Made by a program: the position numbers and the translations under genes
The notes under the pieces: model-generated
The model's input: the letters and a program-made list of their open reading frames with translations, nothing else
Told to the model about the DNA's origin: nothing
The model's database searches: none
DNA from: Cyanidioschyzon merolae
Lineage: Eukaryota
Length of the DNA: 64,000 nt
NCBI GenBank assembly: GCA_000091205.1
Contig: AP006493.2
Direction: 5' to 3' (one strand)
Shown: positions 1 to 45,604 of the stretch, piece by piece
How the letters are laid out: every line of letters starts with the position of its first letter
How positions within the stretch are numbered: position 1 is the stretch's first letter

Positions 1-2
1 AA

Positions 3-2189
3 TTGGAGGCCCCCAAGCGGGATACGAGCCGTTCAAGTCCGGGAACGCAACGCGGAACGCTGAGTGAGCGCACGTTATCTGAACCGGACGCAACCGCGGC
101 GGATCCTGCGCAGCACCATCTGAGAGTATCATCTGATGTAGCTGTAGCAACCACTGCGGTTTCACAGCTATCGCTCAGTGCCGATGCCGACAAGACCCTA
201 ACGAAAGAGATCCCCTTCCATTCCGATTTACGCACGGATGCGCCCGAATTCGTGCCGTTTATATCGTACGGTGGCTTTGGCACATCTGCATTCCCAGTAC
301 CACAGATGAGCCCGACGTTCTTTTCAGCTCCGTACGGCGAGGCGACGCGGTCGGATCTATATCCTTTACCAGCTTATATGCAGCCTGCTGACTGGGGCAC
401 AGCGTCTGCCGGCGATACGATCGACATGCACCATCTCAGTTCTGGTGGCGAGGCGGCTGTACCCACAAGGACAGTGAGGCAGCGTGCGCCCCCAGAGGAC
501 GACGATGAGGATCTCGCAGCGGCGGCGATTTCGTCGGCGCTCGGCGAGCGGCGCCAGCATCGTGGCGGCAAGGGCGTCACCGCAGGGCGACACGCTGGAA
601 CCAGCAGTGCGCCTGGACGAACGCGGCAGCGCCCGACGATTGCGGCCAGCACGGAAGTATTTCGGGCCAACAGGGGGCGTCACCGGACTGGGATGGGTGT
701 GGGCGCTTCTGGCACCGATGGAACGCTTGCCAAGCCACAGCGCTTCGTGTCCGAGGATCGCGAAGCGCCCTCGCACTCGGAAGCTTCAGCAGCATCAGCA
801 TCAGCATCAGCATCACGTCTGGAGCAGGAAGCAACGACTCCGATGGCACGTTCTGGACAGCAACAGCGGACCGCAGATTCAAACACGAGCGCCAGCACGG
901 AGCTGCAAACGAGGCGGCGGTCTCCTGGGCTGCGAACGAGTAGCAACAGCAGCAATGTGCGCTCTGTGCAGGATGTGCGCTGCGAATCCAGGCGTGGTAC
1001 TGCTGCTCCTACTACTACTACTGCAACGCAATCGTCGCCGGGGGAGAATCTGAAAGCTGCGGACGATGAGAGCGCGCAACGTTCGGAACCTGCGCCAGCT
1101 CTTTCAGAACAGCAGAGCGGGGCTGCTGCATCCGATGCAAGAGCCGGTGTGCAAACGCGAAAGGTAACCACAGGCGTGAATAGACTCAAGGCTGTGAAGC
1201 CATCTCGGCCCGCAACCGCGAACAAGTCGGCAGCAAACGCACTAGAACCAACAGCGGGTACCGGAACGGCCGATCGGAACGGCGAAGACGCCCTGGCACC
1301 AGCGACGACGAAGCGCGGCAAGTATTGCGACCGCAACGCTGGTGCCGATGGGAAACGTCGCGAACGATGGACAAGCCGACCGCGTCCACGAAGCATGCGC
1401 GAAGGGCGTTCGCGGAGTACCGCTTCCGTTACGGGTGCTGCTTCTGCAGCGACAACGGAGCCGAAGACGGCTACAGCCTTGGACACCGCAGTCAAGATGT
1501 TGCCGTTCGAGGTCAGTGGAACACGCACACCATCGCCAGTGCAGCGGGAGCAGCAGAAGCAAGAAGCGGTGCCTGAAGCGCCAACTCGAACGTCTCCAGC
1601 GGCGGAGGGCGCTCCCAAGGCGCTTGTCACGCCAGCTGATCCCGCTGAGGATCCGAAAACGCCTGCCAAAGACCAGCGGACTCGTGAGGCAGGCTCATCT
1701 GACGCGAGGGTATCAACGACGACGCCACCATTATCATCATCAGCGTCAGCATCAGCGTCGTTGTCGTCGAAAGAGCAAGGAGCCGCCAATGCGAAAGCAA
1801 CCGCCGCTACGGGCCAAGAAACGAAACACGAGCATTCGGCTTCTCGTCGACACTCGCAACGAAAGCTGCACCCGCGACAACGTCAACAGAAGCATCGCTT
1901 CCGGAACCGGACCAATGCAGGCAGCGAACAAGTCGAAAGCTCAGCGCGCACCATGCAACCCGAGCCTGCACCAACCGGAAACGATCGTTCTTCCGCGAAC
2001 GACGAGCATCGTGCGAGCTTCAAAAACGTCGATGTTGTCCCAGTTGCTGGCGCTTCCCTTGCACAACCAAAGTTCAAGCTGTCAACCGAGAGCGCAGTCG
2101 CTTATCGCCGAGTCGAGGCGAACGCGTCTCCGAGGCGTGCTCTGCGACAATTTCGCGAAAAGGTCAGCGAGGACGCCAAAGACGCATGA
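3..2189 (+). CDS. 5'-truncated at the window edge. Ser/Ala/Thr/Arg/Pro-rich, intrinsically disordered protein carrying a PAM2 (PABP-interacting) motif, LRTDAPEFVPF
   Basis: 728-aa open frame running from the window edge. PAM2 consensus L-x-x-x-A-x-E-F-x-P at nt 223-258. Low-complexity SASASAS runs. The antisense ORFs across it are compositional artefacts. Confidence 0.5.
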   Translation: MEAPKRDTSRSSPGTQRGTLSERTLSEPDATAADPAQHHLRVSSDVAVATTAVSQLSLSADADKTLTKEIPFHSDLRTDAPEFVPFISYGGFGTSAFPVPQMSPTFFSAPYGEATRSDLYPLPAYMQPADWGTASAGDTIDMHHLSSGGEAAVPTRTVRQRAPPEDDDEDLAAAAISSALGERRQHRGGKGVTAGRHAGTSSAPGRTRQRPTIAASTEVFRANRGRHRTGMGVGASGTDGTLAKPQRFVSEDREAPSHSEASAASASASASRLEQEATTPMARSGQQQRTADSNTSASTELQTRRRSPGLRTSSNSSNVRSVQDVRCESRRGTAAPTTTTATQSSPGENLKAADDESAQRSEPAPALSEQQSGAAASDARAGVQTRKVTTGVNRLKAVKPSRPATANKSAANALEPTAGTGTADRNGEDALAPATTKRGKYCDRNAGADGKRRERWTSRPRPRSMREGRSRSTASVTGAASAATTEPKTATALDTAVKMLPFEVSGTRTPSPVQREQQKQEAVPEAPTRTSPAAEGAPKALVTPADPAEDPKTPAKDQRTREAGSSDARVSTTTPPLSSSASASASLSSKEQGAANAKATAATGQETKHEHSASRRHSQRKLHPRQRQQKHRFRNRTNAGSEQVESSARTMQPEPAPTGNDRSSANDEHRASFKNVDVVPVAGASLAQPKFKLSTESAVAYRRVEANASPRRALRQFREKVSEDAKDA
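223..258 (+). other. PAM2 motif (LRTDAPEFVPF), predicted to bind the MLLE domain of poly(A)-binding protein
   Basis: Matches the ataxin-2/Paip2 PAM2 core LNPNAKEFVP position by position. Confidence 0.5.
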
Positions 2190-3387
2190 TCGTCGTTTAT
2201 CTCAATTGCAATGCACCTCCAGATGGGTGTCATCAAATGCCTCTTCGCGGTTTACAGCAGATGCGTTTGAAATGCGTTCATTTTGAAGAATAAAAAGTCC
2301 CATGGAAAGGTATGCACATGGAGGTCGAAGATCCCGGACGACCACGATCGTCGCCTATCAAACGATACCCAAAAGAAATCCTCTTCTCACGGACCATCGA
2401 GCGAAGGAGAAGAAGAAGAACAGGAAGGAGTAAGCGAGAAGAGGTGTTTGTCCGACGGAATGGCAACGAGACCGCGGTGGTACGGAGGGCACGATTTCGA
2501 TGAATGCTCGCATCGGCAAGATCCACCAGCTGCAGATCATACATGGAGTTCGTGAACCGAGACTTGAACGTCCCCATCAATATCAGGAGATGTGCGGTAC
2601 CGAGGACGTGACCTGCGGTGCTGACGCGATCGAATTCTGTGGAGCAGTGTCTCAGACTCGAGGTGCTCAAGGAGAAAAGCACTGGGAGGCGTCTGCGGGT
2701 GGCTATTCATTTACCCGACACGGTCGTAGAACATTTTGGTGTTTCACGTATCGAGTGCGCAGCAAGCAAGTCACGTTCAAAGCACAGACGTTGCAGTCGA
2801 GCGATGCTTCATTCGGCCGCTGAAGCGAATCAGCCTTCAGCAGCTGCCGAGTCCTCAATCCCATACCCGCACACGAGCGACTGCTGCATATGGTGTTTCG
2901 GTGGCGGCGGACAAGCTTCTCGGGCGGGAGTTTCTGTGCACTAGGGCTGCGTGAGTAGCGCCGCCGGGGCGTAAAACCTTTCCGCAGCACCACGTGATGG
3001 GAATCATTTCAAGAATCTGGCTTTCAGGTAACGCTTGATGGGGGTTTCACGAGACCCGCTGCTTTCTTTGTGGGTGCATTATGCCAGTCTGCAGGATGCG
3101 GCTCTATCGGTGTCCCGATGTGCTGCAGTTTTGACCGGCGGTGCCTGCGTTCGGTACGAATATGGGGCGCTGCGTGCCCGGGAGCGCACGAACCTGGACG
3201 CTGTGGGGCTGCTTCCTCGCACGCCGTTGAACAAGCTCGCCGAACACGCCACTGGATACGAAGACGCTGGTGCTGTTGCTGCTGATTGCGTGCGGGGATT
3301 CACCTGATCTTCGTTAGACGCGATCGGAAGGTTACATGCCGATATTCGTGCGGGTGCGACCTCGTATTCCAGTCGTCGTCGTCGTTA

Positions 3388-18741: not shown

Positions 18742-19899
18742 TCAGGCGGTTCGGAAGATATTGCCGAAACACTGGGTACAGTACCAGGCACCGGCGCTAT
18801 TCTGGGCAAAAGCTACCGAGCAGAGCTCGTAGTCTCCCAACATGTTCGCTCGATGCGGTGGCGAACTGATAAATAAGTTGATACACTCGTGTGCCACATG
18901 CTCCGCTTCCGTGAAAAACGCGACGTTTTCACCGCTGAACACAATACCTGCAGGTACAGGTACGATCGGATGGCTCAGGTCCTGGTCACGGAAGACGCCT
19001 GTGCGAGCCATGTACTGGGACCAGGCCAGCGCCTCGACGTAGAGGCCCTGGTTGTAGCCGAGAGGTCCGAGTCCGTTCTCAGCCCTGAACTGGTTTGTGT
19101 ACTCGAGGGCTCGCAGGCCAAGTGCTTGGATCGACGAGCTCGGTGACGGCTCTGCGCTGGACGGGCTTGATGTCGGGGGCGCTGCGGTCTCGGGCGGCAC
19201 CGCCGAGGACACAGCAGTAGGCGTCGGCGCTGGTGCTGCCGTTGGTGTAACGAACGGCGGCGGCGGTACCGGCGTCTCCACCACAACGATAACAACAGGT
19301 GTCGCAGGAGCAGCGGTTACCACCGGAGCGCTCGACTGTATCGAAACTGCCGTTGGCGTCGGCGAAGGTGTTGGTGTTGCGATTGGCGTCGTCACGCTTG
19401 TTACTGACGGGCTCGCGACTGCCTCCTGGGACACGCGTTTGCAGTCGAGACCGTCGTCGCAGATGCAACCGACTGCACCAGCCACTAGAAAGTCTCCCGT
19501 GCAGCAATAATAAACACCAGGGCCACCGACAATATTCTCTGAGAGATACGTAGCATGGCATTGGGTGCTCGAGTCACCGCACGCTGCCGCGCAGATGGCG
19601 GTTTGATCCACAGCTGTCTGACGCATCGAGAGCGAGGACAGGGGTAGCACGGCTTCGGCTTCACGTTGTGCAGCTTCCGCCAGCTCCACTAGATACGCAG
19701 CCATTTCAGCGAAACGGAGCTCAAGCTGCTGCTCCTTCAGCTGCATCTGGCGACGGATGGAGAATAGCTCCTGTATGTGGAGCACATCTTCGATGGAAAA
19801 TGCCGTTACGAGGCTCAGAAGCATCATCATAGCTAGAACACTGCACACGGCACGCCGAGGCGATAGCAAACGAACAACGCTGCGGGGAAGGCTCTCCAT
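18742..19899 (-). CDS. Secreted cysteine-rich protein with a Thr/Pro-rich mucin-like linker and a C-terminal CAP/SCP (PR-1-like) domain
   Basis: Signal peptide LAMMMLLSLVTAFS. C-x2-C-x6-C...CC cysteine module. TPTPSPTPT runs. C-terminal FSGENVAFF (CAP4 G-E-N-V), HRANML, and CSVAFAQN...YCTQCFGN. Confidence 0.5.
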   Translation of the reverse strand: MESLPRSVVRLLSPRRAVCSVLAMMMLLSLVTAFSIEDVLHIQELFSIRRQMQLKEQQLELRFAEMAAYLVELAEAAQREAEAVLPLSSLSMRQTAVDQTAICAAACGDSSTQCHATYLSENIVGGPGVYYCCTGDFLVAGAVGCICDDGLDCKRVSQEAVASPSVTSVTTPIATPTPSPTPTAVSIQSSAPVVTAAPATPVVIVVVETPVPPPPFVTPTAAPAPTPTAVSSAVPPETAAPPTSSPSSAEPSPSSSIQALGLRALEYTNQFRAENGLGPLGYNQGLYVEALAWSQYMARTGVFRDQDLSHPIVPVPAGIVFSGENVAFFTEAEHVAHECINLFISSPPHRANMLGDYELCSVAFAQNSAGAWYCTQCFGNIFRTA

Positions 19900-20240
19900 A
19901 TCGTAGAGAACAGTCGCAAATGTTCTGCTTGTTCAGACGTTAGTGTATGCACAGAGACACGCGCTCCCGGCAGCAACAATGCCAGGACTTGGGTGAGACG
20001 TTTCGCTGGTAGACCACCTTTCATATGGAGAGATGGAAGGCACGCGCGTTCCTGGCACGAGCAACGGTGGCAGCTTCGAGGATGGCACCGGCCTGCGGGC
20101 CCCGCAGCGCCACGGCGCGCGGCAGCACCGCGCGATCCGCGTAACGGATGTCCGTTTTGCCAGCGGGCAGCGGCAGCGATGGCATCGTGCGTCGCAGGAT
20201 CGCAAACGCGCATCACCAGCGCGTTCCGCGATTTTGCCGT

Positions 20241-20366
20241 GCGCGTTTGTTGATGTCCGTATTATACATGAATGTCGCTGTTGAGAAGGTCGAATCACGA
20301 TCGGTGCGTTTGTTTATGTCCGTACTATACATGAATGTCGCTATTGAGAAGGTCGAATCACGATTG
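20241..20366. repeat. 63-bp tandem repeat, 2 copies, in the divergent intergenic region between the paralogous secreted-protein genes
   Basis: gcgcgtttgttgatgtccgtattatacatgaatgtcgctgttgagaaggtcgaatcacgat is repeated with 4-5 substitutions. Confidence 0.85.
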
Positions 20367-20552
20367 CTGGTATACGGCTCGTAGCTGGGTGCGCGATCCG
20401 GCATCGAGAAGCGCGCTGGAAGCATCTGCGCGGCCACTGGATGAAACGGAAACTGGTGGGATCGGTCCCGAAGGAGAAACGTTACTCGGGTCTGGTGGTG
20501 CGCATCGCCAGTACGTTGCGTTGCGGAGAGGATGCGGCGCGGGTGAGCTGCA

Positions 20553-20580
20553 CCGAACCGAACCGAACCGAACCGAACCG
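20553..20580. repeat. (CCGAA)5 pentanucleotide microsatellite
   Basis: ccgaaccgaaccgaaccgaaccgaaccg. Confidence 0.9.
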
Positions 20581-20803
20581 AGCTCAACTGAACGCAGGGC
20601 TCTTTTCTTGGAAACCGTTTCATCGCTGCGCTGTGCGCGCTTGGCATCGCGTTGTCCGAGAGCGGTAACGGTTTGTTTCCGGTGAGCCGTGATATATGGT
20701 GTGCATGGTGGTTTTTTGCGAGTGGAGCTTTGGAAAGCGAACAGGTTTCGCCAAGATTGTAGTCTAAACAGCACTAATCACAGAAGTAGCTTATCAAGGC
20801 AAA

Positions 20804-21859
20804 GTGAGGTTCATGAGTTCTTACATGCTGCAGCGCGAACGAGGCTCACGTGCACCATGTTATTCGATGGCGCGCTGCCGAGTTCCTGCGAGAAACCGCC
20901 TTCACCGCTGGGTGCTCCTATTTTTCAGTGTGTTCGTGCTGTGGTTCGCGGCCCAAAGCATGCTTGTTCTGGGACACGCAGAAGAAGAATTTATACCACA
21001 GAGAGCAGTGAATCAACCAGAGCTGGTGCAAGACTCGAGAGCGCTAGCGGCGACTGCGGCAGCGCCGCTGCAAGCAATGCGGCTTGAAGCTGGAACGCCG
21101 GCTCCAACGACGGGTATTCCTTATTCCGCGCTCTCGCCGAGCGTGCTAAGCACCGCCCAACAAGCAGCACTTTGCGCGGAGCTCTGCCCGAATGCAGTCA
21201 CGACCTGCGCAATCAAGTTCATCTACGGCACCGGAACGACCTGTTGTTGCTCGGGGGCGTTCTTTGTCCGTGGCAGCATTGGACACCTTTGTAGCGACCA
21301 ATCCATTCCCAAACTCGTCCCCGAGTCGCTGCTCAACCAAGTCATCACCGCAGCGAATGCATCGAGTACCGGTGTTGAGGATAAGCCGCCCGGAGCGATT
21401 ACCAAGGCGAATGCCAGTGCGCTGCATCTCGCTGGGCGCAGCGGTCTCGACCGGATAAACCAAGTGCGCGCTGCTCAGCGCAGAGAGCCCATTATTTGGA
21501 GTCAAGCGGTCTACGAGAGTGTTTCTTTCTGGCTCTCTTATCTGGATACAACCCATCTCTTCATTACGCAAAACTTGGGCAAACCAGCAAAGCCCTTTCC
21601 GCCCGGTGCACTGTTCCTTGCAGAGGTGGTGCTCGCTCAGCGCCTTCCTGAGAATGTCACCGCAGAGGAGGCTGGCATAGCTTGCGGAAACGCCCTGCTC
21701 AACGGGAACATTTCGGCGGAGATCACACTGGCAAACTATGAATTCGGCGCTGTGGGTACCATGCCGCGTTCCTCAGGTCCCGAGTGGCTATGCTCTATCA
21801 GTCTCGGAAACATGTTTCGATACGGCGGGACAAGTTTCCCCAATGCAACGGGTTCATAG
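20804..21859 (+). CDS. Paralogue of 18742-19899: signal-anchored, cysteine-rich, CAP/SCP-like C-terminal domain
   Basis: Same cysteine module (CAELCPNAVTTC...TCCCSGAFFVRGSIGHLCSD versus CAAACGDSSTQC...YYCCTGDFLVAGAVGCICDD). C-terminal INQVRAAQRREPIIWSQAVYESVSFWLSYL aligns to TNQFRAENGLGPLGYNQGLYVEALAWSQYM. LCSISLGNMF aligns to YCTQCFGNIF. Confidence 0.5.
   Translation: MRFMSSYMLQRERGSRAPCYSMARCRVPARNRLHRWVLLFFSVFVLWFAAQSMLVLGHAEEEFIPQRAVNQPELVQDSRALAATAAAPLQAMRLEAGTPAPTTGIPYSALSPSVLSTAQQAALCAELCPNAVTTCAIKFIYGTGTTCCCSGAFFVRGSIGHLCSDQSIPKLVPESLLNQVITAANASSTGVEDKPPGAITKANASALHLAGRSGLDRINQVRAAQRREPIIWSQAVYESVSFWLSYLDTTHLFITQNLGKPAKPFPPGALFLAEVVLAQRLPENVTAEEAGIACGNALLNGNISAEITLANYEFGAVGTMPRSSGPEWLCSISLGNMFRYGGTSFPNATGS

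Positions 21860-32116: not shown

Positions 32117-32117
<1 letters not shown>

Positions 32118-32211
<94 letters not shown>
32118..32211. repeat. (GCGT)~23 microsatellite, ~50 bp upstream of the DNA ligase I start codon
   Basis: Perfect tetranucleotide run gcgtgcgtgcgt... Confidence 0.95.
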
Positions 32212-32215
<4 letters not shown>

Positions 32216-32262: not shown

Positions 32263-35200
32263 ATGACCTGCAATTGGCAGCTAGCTCACGTACTCTGGCG
32301 TCAAGAGCATCTTCGTTCCATGAAGGTTATCTGCACTGTCGCAAAAAAAGAATTATCTGCCACATTCAAGCGACCTTCGAACGGGTACGAGCTGTCGTTC
32401 GCGCTACCCAGGCCCCGTCCGCCGCAAAAGCACTGCGGGCCCACAGCTCGTCGAACTGCAGCTGCTGCTTCGCGGCGTGAAGTCTCCTGTCCAACTACCC
32501 CGAGCCGATGCCGTTGGAGCGTGCGGACACACAACCTGTCCGCCTGGAACGCCCGAACAGGAACTGACCTCAGCGGGGCGGCGGTGGTGCCTTCGCTGCA
32601 GGCCGCCTCTCAACCAGCATTGGTGTCGGCGCGGTTGGCGCGCTGCGCACCTGCAACTTGCAACGCCGGGCACGGCATAAGCAGCCGCAGAGAACGACGC
32701 CGAGTGAGTGATTTCTTCGGCTACATCCCGTTGGGAAGTTTCGAGGGACCCGGGAGGCTGTTAACAATCTTCGAGAGTGCGGAAGTGAGCTTAGTGAAGG
32801 AGATGCCCCCTCTGCACCGAAAGCAGTCCCGTCGCGTTGTATGTGTTGCGGACACGAGCAGTGATGACAGTTCGTCATCGGCAATGGCTTCAGAAGCCTC
32901 AAAGTTCCCTGGCCCCGATAAGTTTCAAAACGCAGCGCTTACACGCACATCCGAGAATGAGTTGGACGCAAATCAGCCTGGAACTGGCACGCTCGACAGT
33001 GTTGAAGAAACTCCAGTCTACGGAGCGCCAACCACGGACGCTTCGAGCGACGGTTTATCTCCAAGAACGCCTAGGAAACCTTCGGGTACATCTTCATCGT
33101 TGGATCGGGAAGAGGGAGACGCTGGTGGCTCCGAGTTGTTCGGAACCGGACGATTGCGACCAACAGCCTCGGAACAGGTAGCGGAGGTCAAGAGCGATGT
33201 CTCGCCGGCGGACGCGGACAGCAACCACCGGCTCGCATCAACGCTCCAGACCGCTCAGCTTGGTTCAAGCGAAGCGAAGCCGCCCAAGAAACGAGCCCGC
33301 AAAGGAGAGCGCGCCAAACGCACGCTCAGCACCAAGGCGAACGGCGACTCGGATGACGAGGATCGACAGACAGGACTATACGGTGCCCTGGCGGCAGACG
33401 ATTACCTGAAGCTGTTTGAGCCCTGTTGGGAGCCCGGCCAACCCGTCCCATATAGTTTTCTTGCGAATGCGTTTGAAACAATGGCGGGAACAAGCGGACG
33501 CATCGACCTGACCCGCCAACTTGCCTGTGTTCTGTTCCATGTACTGAATCGAACGCCGGTGGATCTATTGCCGACCATTTACCTAGTCATTAACCGGCTA
33601 GCACCAGCGCATGAAGGTCTTGAAATCGGCGTTGGAGACGCTCTGTTGTTGCAAGCGCTTGCCGATGCCACAGGGCGGAGTCTCAGCAAACTCAGAGAAG
33701 ACTATCACCGGACAGGCGACCTGGGAGATGTCGCCGTCCATTCGCGAACGACGCAGCGCACCATGTTCGCCGTGCCTCGCCTGACGATTCGCAATGTCTA
33801 CAATGAGTTGCTGGCCATTGCACGCGCTTCCGGTAAGGCAATGCAGGAAGAAAAACGTCGCCGTATTCAGAAGCTCCTCGTCGCTGCAAAGAATAATGAA
33901 GCGAAGTTTATTGCCAGGGCACTACAAGGAAGATTGCGTATTCGGCTTGCGGAGAAAACCGTTATTCTGGCACTTGCGGCCGCATTTGTACAGAATGCGG
34001 CAGCGAGTCGTGGTACGCACCCGGATGCGGCACGCGTCGAACGGGCTGCGCACCTACTGCGAACATCATCCAATGAATGCCCGTCATGGAATATGATTAC
34101 TGAGGCATTGCTCGAGTTGCAAGATATCGATGAGCGGCTTCTCGAGCGATGTCATTTGACACCAGGCCTCCCAGTGATGCCCATGCTTGCCAAACCCAGT
34201 AGGTCTATAGCGGAAGTCCTCACTCGGTTCGAAGGGATGCGCTTTACCTGCGAATACAAGTATGATGGCGAGCGAGCCCAGATCCACGGCCTCGCAGATG
34301 GATCCATCCGCATATACTCACGGAATGCTGAAGATCATACGCGCAAATATCCGGACGTCATGGAGCAGATACTACAGGCGGTTGGCTCGTCATCCGATCA
34401 GCCTTCTTTTATTCTGGATTCGGAGGTGGTAGCCTTTGATCGAGACGCCCAACGCATTCTACCTTTCCAGTACATTCAGCAGCGCGCGCGCAAACACGTC
34501 TCGCTGGACGACCTCAAAACGAACGTTCTCATCGTGGCGTTCGATATCCTATACTGGAGAGGAGAGCCCCTGACTCGCAAGCCATTGGCAGAACGGCGAG
34601 CGATCCTGCGGGATGCCTTTCAAGAGGTGCCGGGTGGTTTTCGCTTTGCGACGCGACGCGATGTAAGCGACCTGGACGGTATTCAAAAGTTCATGGAGGA
34701 GGCTGTGCGTGATTCGTGTGAGGGCCTCATGGTGAAAGCGCTTGAAGGTCCTCTTTCGACTTATGAACCGGCGAATAGAACACAGCACTGGCTCAAGCTC
34801 AAGAAGGACTACCTCCGGACAATCGGCGATACACTGGATCTGGTTCCGATTGGTGCGTATTACGGTCGCGGCAAGCGAACCGGCTGGTTCGGCTCGTTTT
34901 TGCTCGCCTGCTATAATCCAGAGACGGAACAGTTCGAGGCAGTAACACGAGTCGGCACGGGCTTTTCGGAAGAGCAGATGGCCCAGCTCCACTCGGAGTA
35001 TGCGCAGTACGTGCTGGATAGCCCACGGCCGTATGTGGCCTGCAGCGAGTCCGTGAAACCGGACATTTGGTTGGATCCCCGCCAGGTTTGGGAGGTTCAG
35101 TGCGCTGATTTGAGCATCTCGCCCGCTTACGTGGCAGCCTGTGGGTACATTGCCCCAGACAAGGGCATCTCGGTTCGCTTTCCTCGTCTGCTACGAATCC

Positions 35201-35349
35201 GGAGCGATAAGCGGCCGGAGGATGCTACGACCAGTGCACAGCTCGCTGAAATGTATCGGAATCAGTTCCGGTCTACGGAGAGCTCGTCTGAATCTTCATC
35301 ATCTGCAGCGCCTAGCGATGAAGAGCCAGAAAGAAACGCGGATGACTAG
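32263..35349 (+). CDS. LIG1: ATP-dependent DNA ligase I
   Basis: Adenylation active site CEYKYDGERAQIH. DNA-binding, adenylation and OB domains are colinear. N-terminal PIP-box-like RRRVSDFFGY at nt 32695-32730. Start codon uncertain (32263 or 32320). Confidence 0.9.
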   Translation: MTCNWQLAHVLWRQEHLRSMKVICTVAKKELSATFKRPSNGYELSFALPRPRPPQKHCGPTARRTAAAASRREVSCPTTPSRCRWSVRTHNLSAWNARTGTDLSGAAVVPSLQAASQPALVSARLARCAPATCNAGHGISSRRERRRVSDFFGYIPLGSFEGPGRLLTIFESAEVSLVKEMPPLHRKQSRRVVCVADTSSDDSSSSAMASEASKFPGPDKFQNAALTRTSENELDANQPGTGTLDSVEETPVYGAPTTDASSDGLSPRTPRKPSGTSSSLDREEGDAGGSELFGTGRLRPTASEQVAEVKSDVSPADADSNHRLASTLQTAQLGSSEAKPPKKRARKGERAKRTLSTKANGDSDDEDRQTGLYGALAADDYLKLFEPCWEPGQPVPYSFLANAFETMAGTSGRIDLTRQLACVLFHVLNRTPVDLLPTIYLVINRLAPAHEGLEIGVGDALLLQALADATGRSLSKLREDYHRTGDLGDVAVHSRTTQRTMFAVPRLTIRNVYNELLAIARASGKAMQEEKRRRIQKLLVAAKNNEAKFIARALQGRLRIRLAEKTVILALAAAFVQNAAASRGTHPDAARVERAAHLLRTSSNECPSWNMITEALLELQDIDERLLERCHLTPGLPVMPMLAKPSRSIAEVLTRFEGMRFTCEYKYDGERAQIHGLADGSIRIYSRNAEDHTRKYPDVMEQILQAVGSSSDQPSFILDSEVVAFDRDAQRILPFQYIQQRARKHVSLDDLKTNVLIVAFDILYWRGEPLTRKPLAERRAILRDAFQEVPGGFRFATRRDVSDLDGIQKFMEEAVRDSCEGLMVKALEGPLSTYEPANRTQHWLKLKKDYLRTIGDTLDLVPIGAYYGRGKRTGWFGSFLLACYNPETEQFEAVTRVGTGFSEEQMAQLHSEYAQYVLDSPRPYVACSESVKPDIWLDPRQVWEVQCADLSISPAYVAACGYIAPDKGISVRFPRLLRIRSDKRPEDATTSAQLAEMYRNQFRSTESSSESSSSAAPSDEEPERNADD

Positions 35350-39778: not shown

Positions 39779-41506
39779 TCAATTGGTGCTCTGTGAACTC
39801 GACGCTGACCCTGCCGCCTCCGTAGGTCGCTCCGGTCGAAAAACTCGTGCATGGTACGCGTCTGGCGACGGCAACTGCGCTCCGGTTTCCGCAGCTTTGC
39901 GCACGACCGCAGGATGAGCAATGCCGAGCTGCGCATAAAGATCGCGTCGTCTGATACCGACTTCGCTCTCTCCGAGCTTTTGGTAGCAGGCTCGTCGGAC
40001 AGACTGGATCGCCTCTGGCGATACCATCACGTAGACGGGTACATACAGCGGGACATAAGCGACAGCAGCGCCTTGCGGTGTCCCAGCAGCGACCGGTAGC
40101 TCCATCGCGGCTGCTGCCGCTGCTTCTGCCGCAGCAGCGGAGCGGTTCACGCGCCCGTCCCGATATCGCCAATCGTCGATATTCCACCATAAAGCGAGCA
40201 GCACTGCGATGCACGCGATAAGTACAAATCGACTAAGCACCGCTTCGTAGCCGAACGCATCTACCACGTGACCCACGTAGATGCTCATGAGACTTGTTCC
40301 CAGGTTCTGCAGGGCCTGCGCAATACCGAGCGCCGCTCCCAGGGCCCAGACCGGCGAAATAACCGTCATAGAAGGCCAAACAGAACTGGAAAGACCGCTG
40401 AAAGCCACCCCCATGCAAATCATGCCGTAGACCGGGCGCGGCACCGGTTGCCATGCAGACGTGCGGGTGTGCTCTAGAAGGGCAAAGGATAGCAGATTCA
40501 GCGTGCACGACACAAGAACGAAGATTCCACGCAAACCAACTGCGTCGAATAGACGCCCGAGAAGTGGCGCCAGCACCATGGAAAAATCGTATACGAGCGA
40601 CACCAAGAGGCTGCCTCGCTCGCGTGAAGTGCCGAACGCCTGATGCAGCAAGTCGCTTCCGATTGCGATAAACGAGAATACCAACGCATAGGACACCATG
40701 CTGATCCCAGCGCACAGCCAGAATGAAAGATCAAGGCATCTGGCAACTTGGAGCAAACTCGAGCGTCTGCTCCGGGGCGAGCGTTCCCCAGCAGGAGCCC
40801 GTGTCCGCGTTTTCGTCGGCTGGAGTGCTGCGGCTCCCTCGGCACGCTTGTGCTCTACAGAGAGCTCAATCGAAGCATAGACCAGAGCAGCACATATCGA
40901 GAGCGCACAAATAATGACACCCACTGCGAATGCCGACACAATGCCGGCAACCTGGTCCACAACCGGCAATAACATGAATGAGAGGATACTGCCAATACGT
41001 GAAACAGTCAAGCTCAGTCCGAAAGCAGTAGCGAGTTCATGACCAGCAAACCAACGACTCACGATAATTGACTGGCAAACGCCGAGGGACTCGCCACCCA
41101 TGCCGAAGATGAAACGCCCACTCAGCAGGAGCCAGTAGCGATGTTGCAGAACGCCGATCAGCATGACCACCTGACCGACCAAGACCAGCGTTGCCAAAGC
41201 AAGCGAGGCCCGGCGACTGCCGTACGTGTCGATTACCAGTCCACCGATAAAAACGAGAACGACGTTAGGCCACGAGTAAATTGAGAAGAGAACGTTATAC
41301 TGGAATCCGGTTAACTGGAGCTTTTCTCGCAGCGTAATCACAAGCGCACTAGGTGTGTCGTAGCAGAAGTACGAGCCGAACGTCAACAGACAGGCCGCGG
41401 CGAGTATCAGGGCACGTGTTGAACCCGACGCCTCGATCGCAGCTTGCGCTGAACTAGCGTCTTGTTGGGGTTTCGCGGACTCGATGCTTCCGTAGTCGTC
41501 CTCCAT
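39779..41506 (-). CDS. Major facilitator superfamily (MFS) transporter
   Basis: ~12 predicted transmembrane segments. MFS-like loop FIFGMGGESLGVCQSIIVSRWFAGHELATAFGL. Acidic N-terminus. Confidence 0.75.
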   Translation of the reverse strand: MEDDYGSIESAKPQQDASSAQAAIEASGSTRALILAAACLLTFGSYFCYDTPSALVITLREKLQLTGFQYNVLFSIYSWPNVVLVFIGGLVIDTYGSRRASLALATLVLVGQVVMLIGVLQHRYWLLLSGRFIFGMGGESLGVCQSIIVSRWFAGHELATAFGLSLTVSRIGSILSFMLLPVVDQVAGIVSAFAVGVIICALSICAALVYASIELSVEHKRAEGAAALQPTKTRTRAPAGERSPRSRRSSLLQVARCLDLSFWLCAGISMVSYALVFSFIAIGSDLLHQAFGTSRERGSLLVSLVYDFSMVLAPLLGRLFDAVGLRGIFVLVSCTLNLLSFALLEHTRTSAWQPVPRPVYGMICMGVAFSGLSSSVWPSMTVISPVWALGAALGIAQALQNLGTSLMSIYVGHVVDAFGYEAVLSRFVLIACIAVLLALWWNIDDWRYRDGRVNRSAAAAEAAAAAAMELPVAAGTPQGAAVAYVPLYVPVYVMVSPEAIQSVRRACYQKLGESEVGIRRRDLYAQLGIAHPAVVRKAAETGAQLPSPDAYHARVFRPERPTEAAGSASSSQSTN

Positions 41507-43783
41507 GGGTACGGAGGCGGAAGAGCCTCCGCTTTTGCAACGAGCGACAGCTGAACGCTGTGAAACGTCGCAGTTGTAGCGCTATGAGCTGCTTGCACCA
41601 ACCTCCAGCCTGAAAAATGGAGAAGCCTCAGCAACCAGAACCAGATCAAGCGACTAGTCGATGGAAGACTATGGATATTGCGACACAGACGCCAAGTTCA
41701 TACGGAACGAAGCCGAGCAGCAAGTTGGCGCTGAAACGGTTTGTCGGCGTTTCGTGACGGCCACGTTTCCTCGCCAAGCAGCCGCCTTGATGGATCTACT
41801 GAAACTCCGCGAGGAGCGTGTACGTTATCCTCCTGCGGAATGCGGACTTGACGTTTCCGTTTGGAGATTATAGTATCGCCCACAATTTTCCCCTGTGAAT
41901 ACCAGGGCAATACGTCACGTTGTGGGGTTGGATATCGAGATACCGACCAAAATATCACTGTGTGGATATATAGGCTAGGAGTTCATCTCGCTCGTTCGAA
42001 TTTCATGATGTGGACCGTATTGTTTCCACATGCACACCAGCGTATTTCTTGCAGCTCCTCGGTTTGCATATCAGGGTGCATGGACCTCGTTGTGAGGCCC
42101 CCGCGGACACTACGCCCGTACTGGATTTATGTAGAACATTGGAATGTTGGATGTGTGCCTGCCTTGAGATCTTTTTCTTACTTTTTTTACGTGTACATAC
42201 TTGGTATTCGAAGCACAGCGATATGGACTTTCCCACTTATAGGTAGTTATATGATGCCCGGCCGTCTCCTCGGAGTGACTTCATCGACGCTTTGCTGCTG
42301 AAGCTCGTAACAAGCCCAGGACCCAGATAATGAGCGAAGCTCTCGAGCAGCGCTACGAAAATACCCGATTCCATAATCCAATTCATAACTGCAAGAATCT
42401 GATCTTCTCTGTACCTCATGAGTAGCTTGCCCGAACCATGTATTCATCAACTTTTCGAACTCTGTATTTTAAGGCGACGTGTGAGCGCAGCAATGGGCGT
42501 CGCTGGACTGACGACGAGCATAGCTTGACGTGGTCCCTCGATGGCTGCTTCGCAAGCTCACTCCACAAGTTCACTAATCATCTCACGTTAAGTACTCGAC
42601 ACCACTCGAAAGATAAACCCTAAACCCATTGTGGTCGACGACGAGGCGGCATTCGACGGCAGCATGATACCTGTCCAGGGATACGCTCCAATGGTATCCC
42701 GTCTCTTCTCTTTCCATTGAATCTAGAACGCCATCAGCGCAGTGAATGGAAGCAGATACTGAGTTATTGAATGGAACAGAGTGCGCTCGCGGAGGCACTG
42801 GACAAGGTACTCGCAGATGCGATGTCCCAGAAGAGGCCCATGATCCTGGGGTGCGGCACTAGGCGTAAAAGCCGAAGAGATACCGAATAGATCCATCTGG
42901 ACCCGCGAAGAGCATGTGCCGAGCGGTAAAGGAAGCATTGATGCATCACAGTGCGGTGCTCGGAGAAAGAGGTGTCATGGACATATACGAACAAGTGACC
43001 ACAAAATCCTGTAATCACTGCAAAAAGCGCAACGACGCTATCTTTATACGAAAAACATGGAAAGTGAAGCATTGATACCATTTTCCGCCTGTAACTGAGT
43101 TGCGTCGGCAACAGCCGTAATTGATCTCGTCTGTACTCGGACGGCGCCATCAACATCTTTCAACGGCTGACAAGCGGCCTGAGGGCTACGAGTGCCCCGC
43201 TTAGTCGAATCTGGAGATCACAGAGAGGAAAAGGAAGCAGTCCGACAATCGTCACCATAAAGGCTGGAGTTGATAAGCGTCCAAAGACGCCCAAACGTCG
43301 ACGTGTACATCATGGTGAACCGAGTAGAAAATGTTCCATGGTACTCCGCTAGACGAATCGGTGGAGACAGTTCAGCCGCGGCACCAATACCCCCGATAAT
43401 CGCTTCTTCAACAAAACGTCCAAAACTGCCCCTTCCGGGCGGACGCAATCGCTTTGCAACCCAAGTTCGAGGCGCGAGCCAAGCCATTGCGTTGGCGTGT
43501 GAAGCAGCACCGCATTCTGTTCACCCCGGACAACTATTTTTCTGTCGGCTGGTACGGCTTGACCTCGACCGACTTGCACAGTCCGATCGGGTTCTGTGGG
43601 TTTACTGCTCTACTACCTGACTCTGCGAAGTTGTGCAGAACTGAGAGGAACTGTTGAAGCCACGACGAGCTCGAGGCCCCGCTCGTCACACAGGCGAGCA
43701 TCGCCTTGTGCTTTTTCGTGTAAGATAACTTCACACGGTGTTCCATACTTGTTTGCGTCGAATACGCTCCCAGAAAATATTGC

Positions 43784-45604
43784 ATGATGCGCTCTCGTTT
43801 CTCGCGGCAACAAAAGGTGTACCTTCCGGTTATAGGGGGTATGCTGTGCCTCCTGGCGCTGGCCGGGACTAGCACCACGGCCGCCACCCTCTGTGACTAC
43901 TGTTCTCAAATCGGTCGTGCGTGTAACATCACTTTGGGTCAGTGCGTGCCGTGCACGCCAACGAGCGGTTGCACAGAGCGACAAGTCTGTAACACGAATA
44001 CGGGGATATGTGCGGTGAAGGACTTGTTCCATCCGTTCCTATGGTCAGACGGTGTGCTCATTGTCTTGGTGTTCCTGGCTACGGGTCTCTCGAACGCTGG
44101 TGGTATCGGCGGTGGCATCCTGTTGGTGCCATTGCTTTCCCTATTTGCCGGTTTTACGCTGAAAAACGCGAGTGCGAATGCACAGCCGCTCATTTTCGGG
44201 GCATCTATTGCGAACGCAATGGTGAATGTGCCGCGCCGGCACGCAGCTCGCGATACCCCTCGTATTGACTGGAACCTCGTTGCCTGCACCGTGCCGTTTT
44301 TTCTAATGGGAACCACCCCAGGCACGTTCATGAATCAAGCTTTTCCCAGCTACTTCACAGCGTTTGTACTTGCATTGTTGCTCTCAGTGCTGTCAGTGCA
44401 AAGTGCTCTCTTTGGTCTGCGGTTACTGCGCGAACGCCTTCAGGAGCGCCACAAGAACGCCGCCGATGAGCAGACGTGGAAGGCGGAAGCTGCAGGAAAC
44501 GCCGCCGATGATACATTGAGCTCGCGTGTGTCCTCGCCATCTGTTGCGGAAACCGCGATTCCCGTACAATCTAACGAAGTCGACGACTGCGGGCGCGACG
44601 CCACGGATGCCACGAAGCCGTCTGCAGACCGTGCATCGGCCGAGCGGCCAGATTCTTCGGATCCGCACTTGAATCATGAGTCTAGGGGTAACGGGTGCTG
44701 CTCTGCTGCTAACGCAAGCAACGCAGTCGACAGCAGTGATGTCCATGCGACAGGCAGCGAGACAGCTGCGTCCTCGCCGTCTAACAACGTGCATCCGCTC
44801 CGACCTGGCCGGTCGCGGTTCTTATGCTACCTGGATCCACTTCTGTGTGCGCAATCGCGGGAGGAATTGCTCGCAGCCGAGCGACCCTGGTTCCAGTGGC
44901 GATACATGCTCTTCCTGTTGGCATGTTGGTTGGTTCTTTTCATCATCCAAATATTATCCGGAAGTGCCGAGAAGCATTCGCCAGTGGGTGCGCCTCTTTG
45001 TGGAGCGGTCTACTGGATCCTTTTTGCTATTCAGGAATCGGTGCTTTTTGCTATGGGATGCTTCACCATCTGGCGTAATTTGTCTTTGAATAGATTGCGC
45101 GATCGACTGGGATATCCGTGGTACTCGAAAAACGGTCTCGGTGATATCCGGTGGACCAGGGCGCTGATCTTCGGATATCCCGTATGGGCCTTCATTGCCG
45201 GAGTTTTCGGTTCTTGGGTCGGCATTGGAGGAAGCTCGCTGCTGATTCCGTTTCTGAACCTTGTCGGACGAGCAGATCCGGCTACCGTCCAGTCGAGTAT
45301 GTCGCTCTCGAACCTCTTGGGCAGTGCCTCCGGCGCCTTTGTGTATCTGGCCCAGGGCCGCCTCAATATTTCCTATGGACTCTTCTTCGGCCTGTTCGCT
45401 CTTCTAGGCAGTTACACTGGAGTCTGGATGGTATATTTTCTCGTGGAACGCTATCAAATCCGGGCGCTTTTTGTTTTTGCGCTCACGATCTGTTTCGTAA
45501 CGGCACTTGGAGCGATTCTATACATTGCGATTCGGAATACGCTTGGCGTTGAGGCTGCCGGCGTCGGTTGGGTATTTACGAACATTTGCGCCTATGTCGG
45601 TTAA
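43784..45604 (+). CDS. TauE/SafE (sulfite-exporter-like) family membrane protein with two TauE domains
   Basis: Two TauE-type repeats, each with a G-I-G-G-G/S motif (NAGGIGGGILLVPLLSLFAG and WVGIGGSSLLIPFLNLVG), split by a long hydrophilic loop. Signal peptide and a Cys-rich N-terminus. Confidence 0.75.
   Translation: MMRSRFSRQQKVYLPVIGGMLCLLALAGTSTTAATLCDYCSQIGRACNITLGQCVPCTPTSGCTERQVCNTNTGICAVKDLFHPFLWSDGVLIVLVFLATGLSNAGGIGGGILLVPLLSLFAGFTLKNASANAQPLIFGASIANAMVNVPRRHAARDTPRIDWNLVACTVPFFLMGTTPGTFMNQAFPSYFTAFVLALLLSVLSVQSALFGLRLLRERLQERHKNAADEQTWKAEAAGNAADDTLSSRVSSPSVAETAIPVQSNEVDDCGRDATDATKPSADRASAERPDSSDPHLNHESRGNGCCSAANASNAVDSSDVHATGSETAASSPSNNVHPLRPGRSRFLCYLDPLLCAQSREELLAAERPWFQWRYMLFLLACWLVLFIIQILSGSAEKHSPVGAPLCGAVYWILFAIQESVLFAMGCFTIWRNLSLNRLRDRLGYPWYSKNGLGDIRWTRALIFGYPVWAFIAGVFGSWVGIGGSSLLIPFLNLVGRADPATVQSSMSLSNLLGSASGAFVYLAQGRLNISYGLFFGLFALLGSYTGVWMVYFLVERYQIRALFVFALTICFVTALGAILYIAIRNTLGVEAAGVGWVFTNICAYVG

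What the first reader, a model, noticed from the sequence alone, without database searches (positions are those of the whole stretch)
18742..21859. Divergently transcribed paralogous pair of secreted Cys-rich CAP-like proteins with a repeat-laden shared promoter region
The genes at 18742-19899 (-) and 20804-21859 (+) sit head-to-head. Both carry an N-terminal signal or anchor, a distinctive C-x2-C-x6-C...CC-x-G cysteine module, and an alignable C-terminal domain with CAP/SCP-like motifs (G-E-N-V, C...YC..C.GN). One paralogue has gained a long Thr/Pro-rich mucin-like linker.

The ~900-bp region between them contains a 2-copy 63-bp tandem repeat and a (CCGAA)5 microsatellite. A recent local inverted duplication of a surface or secreted protein gene, with a repeat-rich bidirectional promoter, often marks a rapidly evolving host-interaction or cell-surface locus.
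Basis: partly seen in the sequence, partly recalled or inferred. Interest (0 to 1): 0.55.

Follow-up and report, generated by a model that had tools for sequence, protein, structure and literature searches.

The report
Diploid-phase secreted CAP-domain gene pair
Two neighbouring, oppositely oriented genes of the hot-spring red alga Cyanidioschyzon merolae encode an old pair of related secreted proteins with a CAP/SCP domain (degenerate in one of them), and published RNA-seq shows both switched on together in the walled diploid stage, so this is a real but fairly ordinary lineage-specific locus, not a recent or fast-evolving one.

Summary
The window is C. merolae 10D, and the genes are CMK229C (A, 18742-19899, minus) and CMK230C (B, 20813-21859, plus).

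- **Gene A:** it hits Pfam CAP at E=3e-12.
- **Repeats:** the 63-bp duplication and the CCGAA microsatellite are present.

- **Age:** the head-to-head pair sits in the same gene neighbourhood in Cyanidiococcus, Cyanidium and a further relative, so the duplication is ancient.
- **Rate:** both genes evolve no faster than their housekeeping neighbours.
- **Repeats:** they are species-specific and nearly invariant among strains.

Additional findings:

- The public CMK229C model (294 aa) omits 91 N-terminal residues, including the signal peptide.
- The cysteine module occurs only in this family among 1.84 billion proteins.
- The CAP domain is the compact bacterial type.
- Published RNA-seq (PMC13353863) shows both genes 8-80-fold higher in walled diploids than in wall-less haploids, unlike their neighbours.

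My best reading is a pair of co-regulated extracellular or cell-wall glycoproteins. That function is inferred, not shown.

The parts
18742..19899 (-). Gene A = CMK229C, full ORF of 385 aa. The public model BAM80584.1 is only 294 aa and starts at the internal Met92 (ATG at 19624-19626).
   Evidence: ORF. P0025 (the 10D annotation) equals window residues 92-385. The residues upstream of Met92 are conserved as coding sequence in the orthologues, and those extended ORFs carry signal peptides.
19795..19899 (-). A: predicted signal peptide, aa 1-35, with inferred cleavage at TAFS|IEDV.
   Evidence: The strongest Kyte-Doolittle window starts at aa 18 (score 2.31). The Cyanidium orthologue is scored SP(Sec/SPI) by SignalP-5 in PMC13353863 Data Set S9. 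The cleavage site is inferred from the -3/-1 rule.
19615..19794 (-). A: long helical, possibly coiled-coil, stalk at about aa 36-95. B has no equivalent.
   Evidence: The AF2 model has a single helix over residues 14-113, with pLDDT about 68-92 over residues 21-80. The segment is conserved among A orthologues.
19435..19602 (-). A: lineage-specific Cys module, aa 100-155, with 8 Cys. Pattern: C-x3-C-x6-C-x17-CC-x11-C-x-C-x5-C.
   Evidence: Six Cys columns are invariant between the A and B families. A profile search of 1.84 billion representative proteins found only 5 clusters, all from this family. No Pfam match. AF2 confidence is low here.
19132..19428 (-). A: Pro/Ser/Ala/Thr/Val-rich extended linker, aa 158-256. 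It is a likely O-glycosylation region and has no N-x-S/T sequon.
   Evidence: Composition is P 25%, S 17%, A 16%, T 16%, V 15%. pLDDT is below 50.
18757..19131 (-). A: compact bacterial-type CAP/SCP domain, aa 257-381.
   Evidence: Pfam PF00188 at E=3e-12. AF2 pLDDT is about 85-97. Foldseek hits GAPR-1 (E=3e-7), BB0689, P14a and 4ifa. An A-only profile aligns to B. anthracis 4ifa over most of the domain, E=7e-5.
19900..20812 (.). 913-bp divergent intergenic spacer, the presumed shared regulatory region.
   Evidence: The head-to-head arrangement is conserved in 4-5 lineages, with spacers of about 0.56-1.7 kb. The sequence is not conserved between genera. Both genes are diploid-predominant and the flanking genes are not.
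20243..20364 (.). 63-bp tandem duplication, 1.9 copies, 94% identical.
   Evidence: TRF. Two copies in all five strain sequences. Absent from the other genera and from the rest of the window.
20552..20581 (.). (ACCGA)6 / (CCGAA)5 microsatellite.
   Evidence: TRF and the sequence itself. Strain contigs differ by one unit or one point change.
20813..21859 (+). Gene B = CMK230C, 348 aa from the first ATG. The finding's 20804 start is a GTG. The true start may be Met5 or Met19.
   Evidence: Identical to BAM80585.1 / P0042. Strain variants are called from Met5 as 344 aa. Orthologues are listed.
20813..20980 (+). B: N-terminal basic region plus a 22-aa hydrophobic core (aa 33-55). It is a signal peptide or signal anchor, with inferred cleavage at GHA|EEE after aa 56.
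   Evidence: The Kyte-Doolittle peak starts at aa 34 (score 2.25). The Cyanidium orthologue is scored SP(Sec/SPI). The C. merolae model is not flagged as secretory in Data Set S8.
21164..21298 (+). B: Cys module, aa 118-162. Six Cys are conserved, and C. merolae has a seventh.
   Evidence: Aligned with the A module at 33% identity, E=4e-8. Invariant columns are listed.
21404..21814 (+). B: degenerate CAP-fold domain, aa 198-334. Both CAP histidines are lost, GEN has become AEV, and the domain holds 3 of the protein's 5 N-x-S/T sequons.

Best explanation
**What the genes are.** CMK229C (A) and CMK230C (B) are an ancient head-to-head pair of paralogous secretory-pathway glycoprotein genes. I found the family only in the Cyanidioschyzon/Cyanidiococcus/Cyanidium branch of the Cyanidiophyceae.

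**Protein architecture.**
- Both proteins have an N-terminal signal, a family-specific disulfide-rich module of 6-8 Cys, and a C-terminal compact CAP/SCP domain of the bacterial type.
- A additionally has a helical stalk and a roughly 100-residue Pro/Ser/Thr-rich linker, probably O-glycosylated. It keeps the Glu of 'GEN' and the His of 'SPPHRANML'.
- B has a short linker and five N-glycosylation sequons. Its CAP domain has lost both histidines, so it is more likely a binding or scaffold partner than a metal-dependent site.

**Regulation and function.**
- Shown by published RNA-seq: the two genes are transcribed divergently from one 0.6-1.7 kb spacer. They are switched on together in the cell-walled diploid phase and are low in the wall-less haploid. 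Strain 10D is a haploid.
- Inferred: the products are exported to the cell surface and act as components or assembly factors of the largely proteinaceous diploid wall or extracellular matrix.
- Inferred: co-regulation comes from the shared spacer or a shared chromatin domain. H3K27me3 silencing in haploids is plausible by analogy with Cyanidiococcus.
- I found no evidence that the intergenic repeats have a function.
For: - **Identity and paralogy:**
- **CAP fold in both proteins:**
- **Motif loss in B:**
- **Signal sequences:**, plus SignalP SP(Sec/SPI) for both Cyanidium orthologues in PMC13353863 Data Set S9.
- **Ancient conserved synteny:**
- **Purifying selection:**
- **Cys module restricted to this family:**
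- **Expression in C. merolae (PMC13353863 Data Set S8):**
  - CMK229C is at 361-386 TPM in the diploid and 41-60 TPM in haploids (log2FC 3.39 and 2.97).
  - CMK230C is at 476-509 TPM in the diploid, against 5.7-9.2 TPM (strain Ha3) and 36-39 TPM (10D) (log2FC 6.28 and 3.94).
  - The flanking CMK228C and CMK232C do not follow this pattern.
- **Expression in Cyanidium:** log2FC is 3.56 for the A orthologue and 1.75 for the B orthologue.
- **Context from the same paper:**
  - The cyanidiophycean wall is reported as 50-55% protein.
  - 35-50% of secretory-protein genes are phase-specific.
  - Only about 3.3% of Cyanidiococcus genes are diploid-predominant.
  - 116 of the 126 genes marked by H3K27me3 in haploids are diploid-predominant.
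Against: - No localisation, proteomic or knockout data were available for these two proteins. The stored part of the Cyanidiococcus proteome and ChIP table (Data Set S7) does not reach their orthologues.
- Both genes keep appreciable expression in wall-less haploids, 36-60 TPM in 10D, so they are not strictly wall-specific.
- CAP domains elsewhere are mostly soluble ligand-binding proteins rather than structural ones.
- The signal-peptide call for the C. merolae proteins rests on hydropathy and on the orthologues, not on a dedicated predictor. B could be a type II membrane protein.
- The spacer shows no sequence conservation between genera, so a shared promoter element has not been demonstrated.
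Confidence: 0.6

Rival explanations
1. A recent local inverted duplication produced a rapidly evolving host-interaction or surface locus, and its repeat-rich bidirectional promoter generates expression variation.
For: The genes are head-to-head paralogues. Two of the window's four tandem repeats lie in the spacer. The pentanucleotide differs by one unit between strain contigs.
Against: The paralogues are 28% identical. Orthologous pairs in the same neighbourhood exist in at least three other genera or species. Divergence is comparable to that of the housekeeping neighbours. Non-synonymous polymorphism is almost absent. The 63-bp duplication is fixed at two copies. The repeats are absent from other genera. 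The organism is a free-living alga.
Confidence: 0.03
2. The proteins are soluble secreted CAP proteins that work like PR-1, Pry1 or GAPR-1. They would bind sterols, lipids or other small hydrophobic ligands, or act against co-habiting microbes. They would not be part of the wall itself, and B would be a non-catalytic partner or decoy.
For: The CAP fold matches Pry1, P14a/PR-1 and GAPR-1. Both proteins have secretion signals. A keeps one tetrad Glu and one tetrad His.
Against: The domain is the compact bacterial type. It lacks the eukaryotic insertion and neither PROSITE CRISP pattern matches. The caveolin-binding-motif loop that Pry1 uses for sterol binding could not be identified. Tight coupling to the walled diploid phase in two genera fits an architectural role better than a general defence role. 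No binding data exist.
Confidence: 0.2
3. The pair acts in the sexual cycle, in adhesion or recognition at mating or zygote formation, as CRISP-type CAP proteins do in animals. It would not act in the vegetative diploid wall.
For: Expression is phase-specific. The proteins have extracellular Cys-rich, glycosylated architecture.
Against: The high expression was measured in asexually proliferating diploid cultures, not during mating. Haploids, which are the mating cells, have the lower expression. The locus was not reported as part of the candidate mating-type region (abstract).
Confidence: 0.07

Closest known systems
Bacterial CAP/SCP-domain extracellular proteins (YkwD-like). Examples are the B. 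anthracis SCP protein 4ifa, S. aureus SAV1118 (4h0a), Borrelia BB0689 (4d53), and cyanobacterial multidomain CAP proteins.
   Same: - The domain is compact, about 120-130 aa, with the motifs LTNxFRAxNGL, GENIA, SPGHRxNxL and YWTQxFG.
- An A-only profile aligns over most or all of the domain with bacterial proteins. Local hmmsearch gives 45-67 bits, and 4ifa scores E=7e-5.
- Many bacterial relatives also have an N-terminal signal followed by a Pro/Thr-rich linker before the CAP domain.
- 33 of the 41 prokaryotic loci found by the motif scan are cyanobacterial.
   Different: - The host is a eukaryote.
- A family-specific Cys module and, in A, a helical stalk are fused upstream.
- The first tetrad His is replaced by Asp in A.
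- The score against TIGR02909 (YkwD) is 28.5 bits, far below its cut-off of 171.
- The function of the bacterial proteins is itself mostly unknown.
Eukaryotic CAP superfamily: PR-1/P14a, yeast Pry1, GAPR-1/GLIPR2, CRISPs and venom allergens.
   Different: - The profile aligns to GAPR-1 over the first helix only, at about 23-25 bits.
- The insertion that carries the second tetrad Glu is missing.
- There is no CRISP/ICR or hinge domain.
Diploid-phase secretory wall proteins of Cyanidiophyceae described by Hirooka et al. 2026 (FAS1-domain proteins, lysyl oxidase, TFF-like proteins).
   Same: These are also secreted, diploid-predominant and lineage-restricted, and lysyl oxidase has a suspected foreign origin. 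CMK229C and CMK230C show the same expression pattern in the paper's own tables.
   Different: The paper's text does not mention CAP/SCP domains or these two genes. The C. merolae models were not flagged as secretory in Data Set S8. The domain family is different.

Membership tests
CAP/SCP superfamily (Pfam PF00188) | Sequence match to the family profile above the curated threshold | tested here: met
   Gene A scores 47.8 bits against a cut-off of 21.1, E=3e-12, over aa 265-376.
CAP/SCP superfamily (Pfam PF00188) | Sequence match to the family profile above the curated threshold (gene B) | tested here: not met
   The C. merolae B protein has no hit even at E<=10. Three of four orthologues hit only weakly, best E=0.0039. 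Homology to A is nevertheless secure.
CAP/SCP superfamily (Pfam PF00188) | Alpha-beta-alpha sandwich CAP fold | tested here: met
CAP/SCP superfamily (Pfam PF00188) | Conserved His/Glu/Glu/His tetrad (GAPR-1 H54, E65, E86, H103) | tested here: not met
   - **A:** His1 is replaced by Asp (FRDQ), although His is kept in the divergent relative P0050. Glu (GENV) and His2 (PPHRANML) are kept.
- **B:** His1 is Thr, Glu is kept (AEVV), and His2 is Ala inside an N-I-S sequon.
- **Second Glu:** it lies in an insertion that is absent from this compact domain type.
- The GAPR-1 residue numbering comes from my own knowledge. Its N-terminal sequence was confirmed by the PDB alignment.
CAP/SCP superfamily (Pfam PF00188) | PROSITE CRISP family signatures 1 and 2 | tested here: not met
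   Neither pattern matches A or B. As a partial control on the remembered GAPR-1 sequence, pattern 1 matched but pattern 2 did not.
YkwD family (NCBIfam TIGR02909) | Score above the curated family cut-off | tested here: not met
   A scores 28.5 bits against a cut-off of 171, although it aligns over profile positions 7-125 of 127. B has no hit. The domain is therefore YkwD-like in type, but the protein is not a member of that subfamily.
Secreted or cell-wall proteins of the diploid phase (functional class, Hirooka et al. 2026) | Signal peptide | tested here: inconclusive
   The hydropathy profile and -3/-1 residues fit a cleavable signal in both proteins. SignalP-5 calls SP for both Cyanidium orthologues. 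No dedicated predictor could be run on the corrected C. merolae sequences. B has a long basic N-region and could be a signal anchor.
Secreted or cell-wall proteins of the diploid phase (functional class, Hirooka et al. 2026) | Diploid-predominant expression (FDR<0.01, log2FC>2) | tested here: met
   From the paper's tables, CMK229C has log2FC 3.39 and 2.97, and CMK230C has 6.28 and 3.94. In Cyanidium the A orthologue has 3.56. The B orthologue has 1.75, which is below the paper's threshold of 2.
Secreted or cell-wall proteins of the diploid phase (functional class, Hirooka et al. 2026) | Physical presence in the wall or extracellular fraction | not testable with these tools
   This needs proteomics or immuno-localisation. 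The stored copy of Data Set S7 (Cyanidiococcus proteome) is cut off before these orthologues.

The most novel reading that the evidence does not exclude
The pair originated from a bacterial, possibly cyanobacterial, extracellular CAP-domain gene acquired by an ancestor of the Cyanidioschyzon/Cyanidiococcus/Cyanidium lineage. That gene was fused to a newly invented disulfide module and duplicated head-to-head. It now supplies a CAP/pseudo-CAP heteromeric building block, or assembly factor, of the unusual protein-rich, acid-tight wall made only by the diploid phase. In haploids the whole divergent unit would be silenced by H3K27me3.
Probability: 0.2. Interest if true: 0.55.

Novelty: new member of a known kind. 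Interest (0 to 1): 0.3.

Why it matters
- **Gene models:** CMK229C lacks its first 91 codons in the public annotation, and the start of CMK230C is uncertain. As annotated, neither C. merolae protein was flagged as secretory in Data Set S8 of the recent life-cycle study, whereas both Cyanidium orthologues were.
- **Candidates for the wall:** the composition of the acid-proof, largely proteinaceous cyanidiophycean wall is unknown. This work adds two co-regulated, diploid-phase, probably extracellular proteins to the short list of candidates. Genetic tools to test them now exist in these algae.
- **Protein evolution:** the pair is a clean example of a CAP domain and a degenerate CAP paralogue kept side by side for a very long time. 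It also shows a bacterial-type CAP domain in a eukaryote.
- **Limits:** none of this overturns current views. CAP-domain secreted proteins and divergently transcribed paralogues are both common.

Tried and rejected
- **PDB sequence searches.** The A CAP domain alone, and a mixed A+B profile, found nothing even at E<=10 and E<=1 respectively. An A-only profile did work.
- **Third homologue search.** The mixed A+B CAP alignment returned only one protein. The A and B families together dilute the profile.
- **First homologue search.** The full-length search was probably biased towards proteins with Pro/Thr-rich linkers. I therefore do not use its taxonomic make-up as evidence of origin.
- **AFDB structure search.** The afdb50 library was unavailable, so I could not make a structural census by taxon.
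- **HGT literature.** The supplements of Rossoni et al. 2019 are not held, and the main text mentions neither these genes nor CAP/SCP.
- **H3K27me3 targets in 10D.** The supplements of Mikulski et al. 2017 list genes only under GO terms, and these genes have none. This was uninformative.
- **Literature by gene name.** Full-text searches for CMK229C and CMK230C, and for CAP plus Cyanidioschyzon, returned nothing.
- **Cross-genus comparison of the spacer.** BLASTN found no significant match. 7-mers shared by all four spacers exceed a mononucleotide shuffle (13 against 2.4 +/- 1.7). That control is too weak, so I draw nothing from it.
- **Bacterial promoter, tRNA and Rfam scans.** These do not apply to a eukaryotic locus, or found nothing.
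- **Cys module structure.** AF2 confidence is too low to compare folds. By eye the cysteine spacing does not fit trefoil or hydrophobin patterns, and Pfam finds nothing.


Full report
**Where the window comes from.** The window has about 55% G+C and long intron-free ORFs on both strands, separated by roughly kilobase spacers. It has no tRNA or Rfam hits. Exact-sequence look-ups place it in Cyanidioschyzon merolae. The 348-aa product of 20813-21859 is identical to CMK230C (BAM80585.1) of strain 10D. Residues 92-385 of the 18742-19899 ORF equal the protein BAM80584.1, which PMC13353863 lists as CMK229C. The neighbouring genes are mitochondrial IF-2 (CMK228C) and argininosuccinate lyase (CMK232C).

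**Checking the observation.**
- Gene A hits Pfam CAP well above threshold (E=3e-12, aa 265-376). Gene B hits nothing in Pfam or NCBIfam.
- The two proteins are homologous outside low-complexity sequence. BLASTP gives E=2e-14 over the C-terminal 144 aa and E=4e-8 over the Cys module. A family-to-family profile comparison gives 99.65% probability, E=5e-25, over 301 columns.
- The 63-bp unit (x1.9 copies) and the (CCGAA)5-6 tract are at 20243-20364 and 20552-20581. They are two of only four tandem repeats in the 64-kb window.
- Small corrections: the module begins C-x3-C, not C-x2-C. GENV is present only in A, and B has AEVV. The 20804 start is a GTG artefact of bacterial-code ORF calling.

**Anatomy.** The A protein has five parts:
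- a hydrophobic N-terminus with an A-F-S cleavage context (aa 1-35);
- a long predicted helix;
- an 8-Cys module (aa 100-155);
- a 99-residue linker that is 25% Pro, 17% Ser, 16% Ala, 16% Thr and 15% Val (aa 158-256), with no N-glycosylation sequon anywhere in the protein;
- a confidently modelled CAP domain (aa 257-381).

B has a basic N-region followed by a 22-residue hydrophobic core. It then has a 6-7-Cys version of the same module, a short linker and five N-x-S/T sequons. Its C-terminal domain is confidently modelled (pLDDT mostly 84-98).

In the alignment, A has Asp in place of the first tetrad His, although a divergent relative keeps His. A keeps the Glu of GEN and the second His (SPPHRANML). 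B keeps only the Glu, and its second His position now lies inside an N-I-S glycosylation sequon.

**Gene models.** The public CMK229C model starts at Met92 and therefore lacks the signal peptide. The region upstream of Met92 is conserved as protein in the orthologues. Extending the orthologous ORFs in Cyanidiococcus and a third species reveals proper signal peptides, and the Cyanidium protein has one as annotated. The new Cyanidium annotations are scored SP(Sec/SPI) by SignalP-5. The C. merolae entries are not flagged as secretory in Data Set S8.

**Age and rate.** The order ASL / B(-) / A(+) / mtIF-2 / GT71 mannosyltransferase / TrmE is conserved in three places. These are Cyanidiococcus yangmingshanensis, a third metagenomic species and Cyanidium caldarium.

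A contig with 69% G+C from an unidentified relative carries a B-like gene head-to-head with an A-like gene. It also carries a third CAP paralogue with a Gly/Asn/Asp/Ser-rich linker. The duplication therefore predates these splits and is not recent.

Amino-acid identity between C. merolae and Cyanidiococcus, and between C. merolae and Cyanidium, is as follows:

| Gene | vs Cyanidiococcus | vs Cyanidium |
|---|---|---|
| A | 77% | 62% |
| B | 71% | 50% |
| mtIF-2 | 70% | 45% |
| ASL | 85% | 73% |

Across four other strain contigs, A has no non-synonymous changes and B has one or two. The adjacent IF-2 segment has four to nine. Neither gene shows any sign of fast evolution.

**The spacer.** In five strain sequences the 63-bp duplication is always two copies. 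The pentanucleotide tract differs by one unit or one point change, and the rest of the spacer is about 98% identical. Nothing in the spacer, repeats included, is detectably conserved in the other genera. The repeats are best read as young, species-specific and probably neutral.

**Distribution of the parts.** A profile of the Cys module was searched exhaustively against 1.84 billion representative proteins. It found only five clusters, all belonging to the A and B families. The module is a lineage-specific invention with no Pfam match, and I could not obtain a usable model of it.

The CAP domain is of the compact bacterial type.
- An A-only profile aligns over most of the domain to the B. anthracis SCP protein 4ifa (E=7e-5). 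It aligns to GAPR-1 only over the first helix.
- In a local search it scores 45-67 bits, full length, on proteins from several bacterial phyla, against 23 bits (partial) on GAPR-1.
- A motif-based scan of 185,579 prokaryotic species genomes returned 41 loci, and 33 of them are cyanobacterial. These are mostly large extracellular multidomain proteins with Pro/Thr-rich linkers.
- That scan is biased by the motifs it used, and bit scores do not single out one donor phylum. A bacterial origin, possibly cyanobacterial, is a lead and not a result.

**Function.** The decisive outside evidence is Hirooka et al. 2026 (PMC13353863). They show that C. merolae 10D is a wall-less haploid. The walled form is the diploid, and they provide phase-specific transcriptomes.

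| Gene | Diploid (TPM) | Haploid (TPM) | log2FC (2n/n) |
|---|---|---|---|
| CMK229C (C. merolae) | 361-386 | 41-60 | 3.39 and 2.97 |
| CMK230C (C. merolae) | 476-509 | 5.7-9.2 (Ha3); 36-39 (10D) | 6.28 and 3.94 |
| A orthologue (Cyanidium) | 382-400 | 36-43 | 3.56 |
| B orthologue (Cyanidium) | 495-534 | 174-201 | 1.75 |

The flanking CMK228C and CMK232C go slightly the other way. In Cyanidiococcus only about 3.3% of genes are diploid-predominant, and most of those carry H3K27me3 in haploids. The wall is reported to be about half protein, and secretory proteins dominate the phase-specific set. The paper's text does not mention these two genes or CAP domains.

Putting this together, I think the pair most likely encodes co-regulated extracellular or wall-associated glycoproteins of the diploid phase.
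- **Shown:** homology, fold, conservation and co-expression.
- **Inferred:** secretion in C. merolae, wall localisation, any A-B interaction, and the mechanism of co-regulation.
- **Main alternative:** a soluble ligand-binding or defensive role like that of PR-1 and Pry proteins.

**Verdict.** The 'paralogous secreted CAP-like pair' reading is right. The 'recent, rapidly evolving, repeat-driven host-interaction locus' reading is wrong. This is a new, architecturally distinctive member of a well-known superfamily. It comes with useful annotation corrections and a testable link to the diploid cell wall. Interest is modest.

Noticed in passing
window 32117-32212: A perfect (TGCG)24 microsatellite lies about 50 bp upstream of the ATG of the 1028-aa ORF at 32263-35349 (+). 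It is the longest simple repeat in the window.
   Followed up: no
window 19624-19899: The public CMK229C model (BAM80584.1, 294 aa) starts at the internal Met92. The 385-aa ORF adds a signal peptide and a conserved helical segment. The annotated Cyanidiococcus model (361 aa) is also cut short at its N-terminus.
   Followed up: yes
L009:1-4087 (Logan SRR31152685, 69% G+C, organism not identified): This contig carries a three-gene cluster of the same family. A B-like gene is head-to-head with an A-like gene (P0050, which keeps the first tetrad His). A third CAP paralogue follows, whose linker is Gly/Asn/Asp/Ser-rich instead of Pro/Thr-rich.
   Followed up: partly
L010-L050 (prokaryotic genome contigs): 33 of the 41 prokaryotic loci that share the LTN[EQ]FRA[EQ]N and AW[SA]xxM motifs with the algal CAP domain are cyanobacterial (Leptolyngbya, Lyngbya, Adonisia, Pseudanabaena and others). 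Many are large extracellular proteins with Ca-binding GGxGxD-type repeats. The scan is motif-biased, and bit scores do not favour cyanobacteria over other phyla.
   Followed up: partly
window 1-2300: This stretch has unusual composition, with G+C 0.61 and AT skew +0.23. It also has three overlapping long ORFs in different frames and strands (3-2189 +, 680-1789 -, 1342-2286 +) and a (CAGCAT)4 repeat at 790-815. It is probably a compositionally biased coding region that runs off the window edge.
   Followed up: no
window 40001-46000: Strong strand-asymmetric AT skew of opposite sign lies over the ORFs at 39779-41506 (-) and 43784-45604 (+). The values are +0.20 and -0.16. I did not examine this further.
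   Followed up: no
C. merolae gene CMK227C (GT71 mannosyltransferase), two genes beyond gene A past mtIF-2 in the conserved gene order; I did not map it to window coordinates.: In the tables of PMC13353863 this glycosyltransferase is mildly diploid-up in both C. merolae (log2FC about 0.9-1.2) and Cyanidium (0.9). Its position near the pair is conserved in all genera examined.
   Followed up: no
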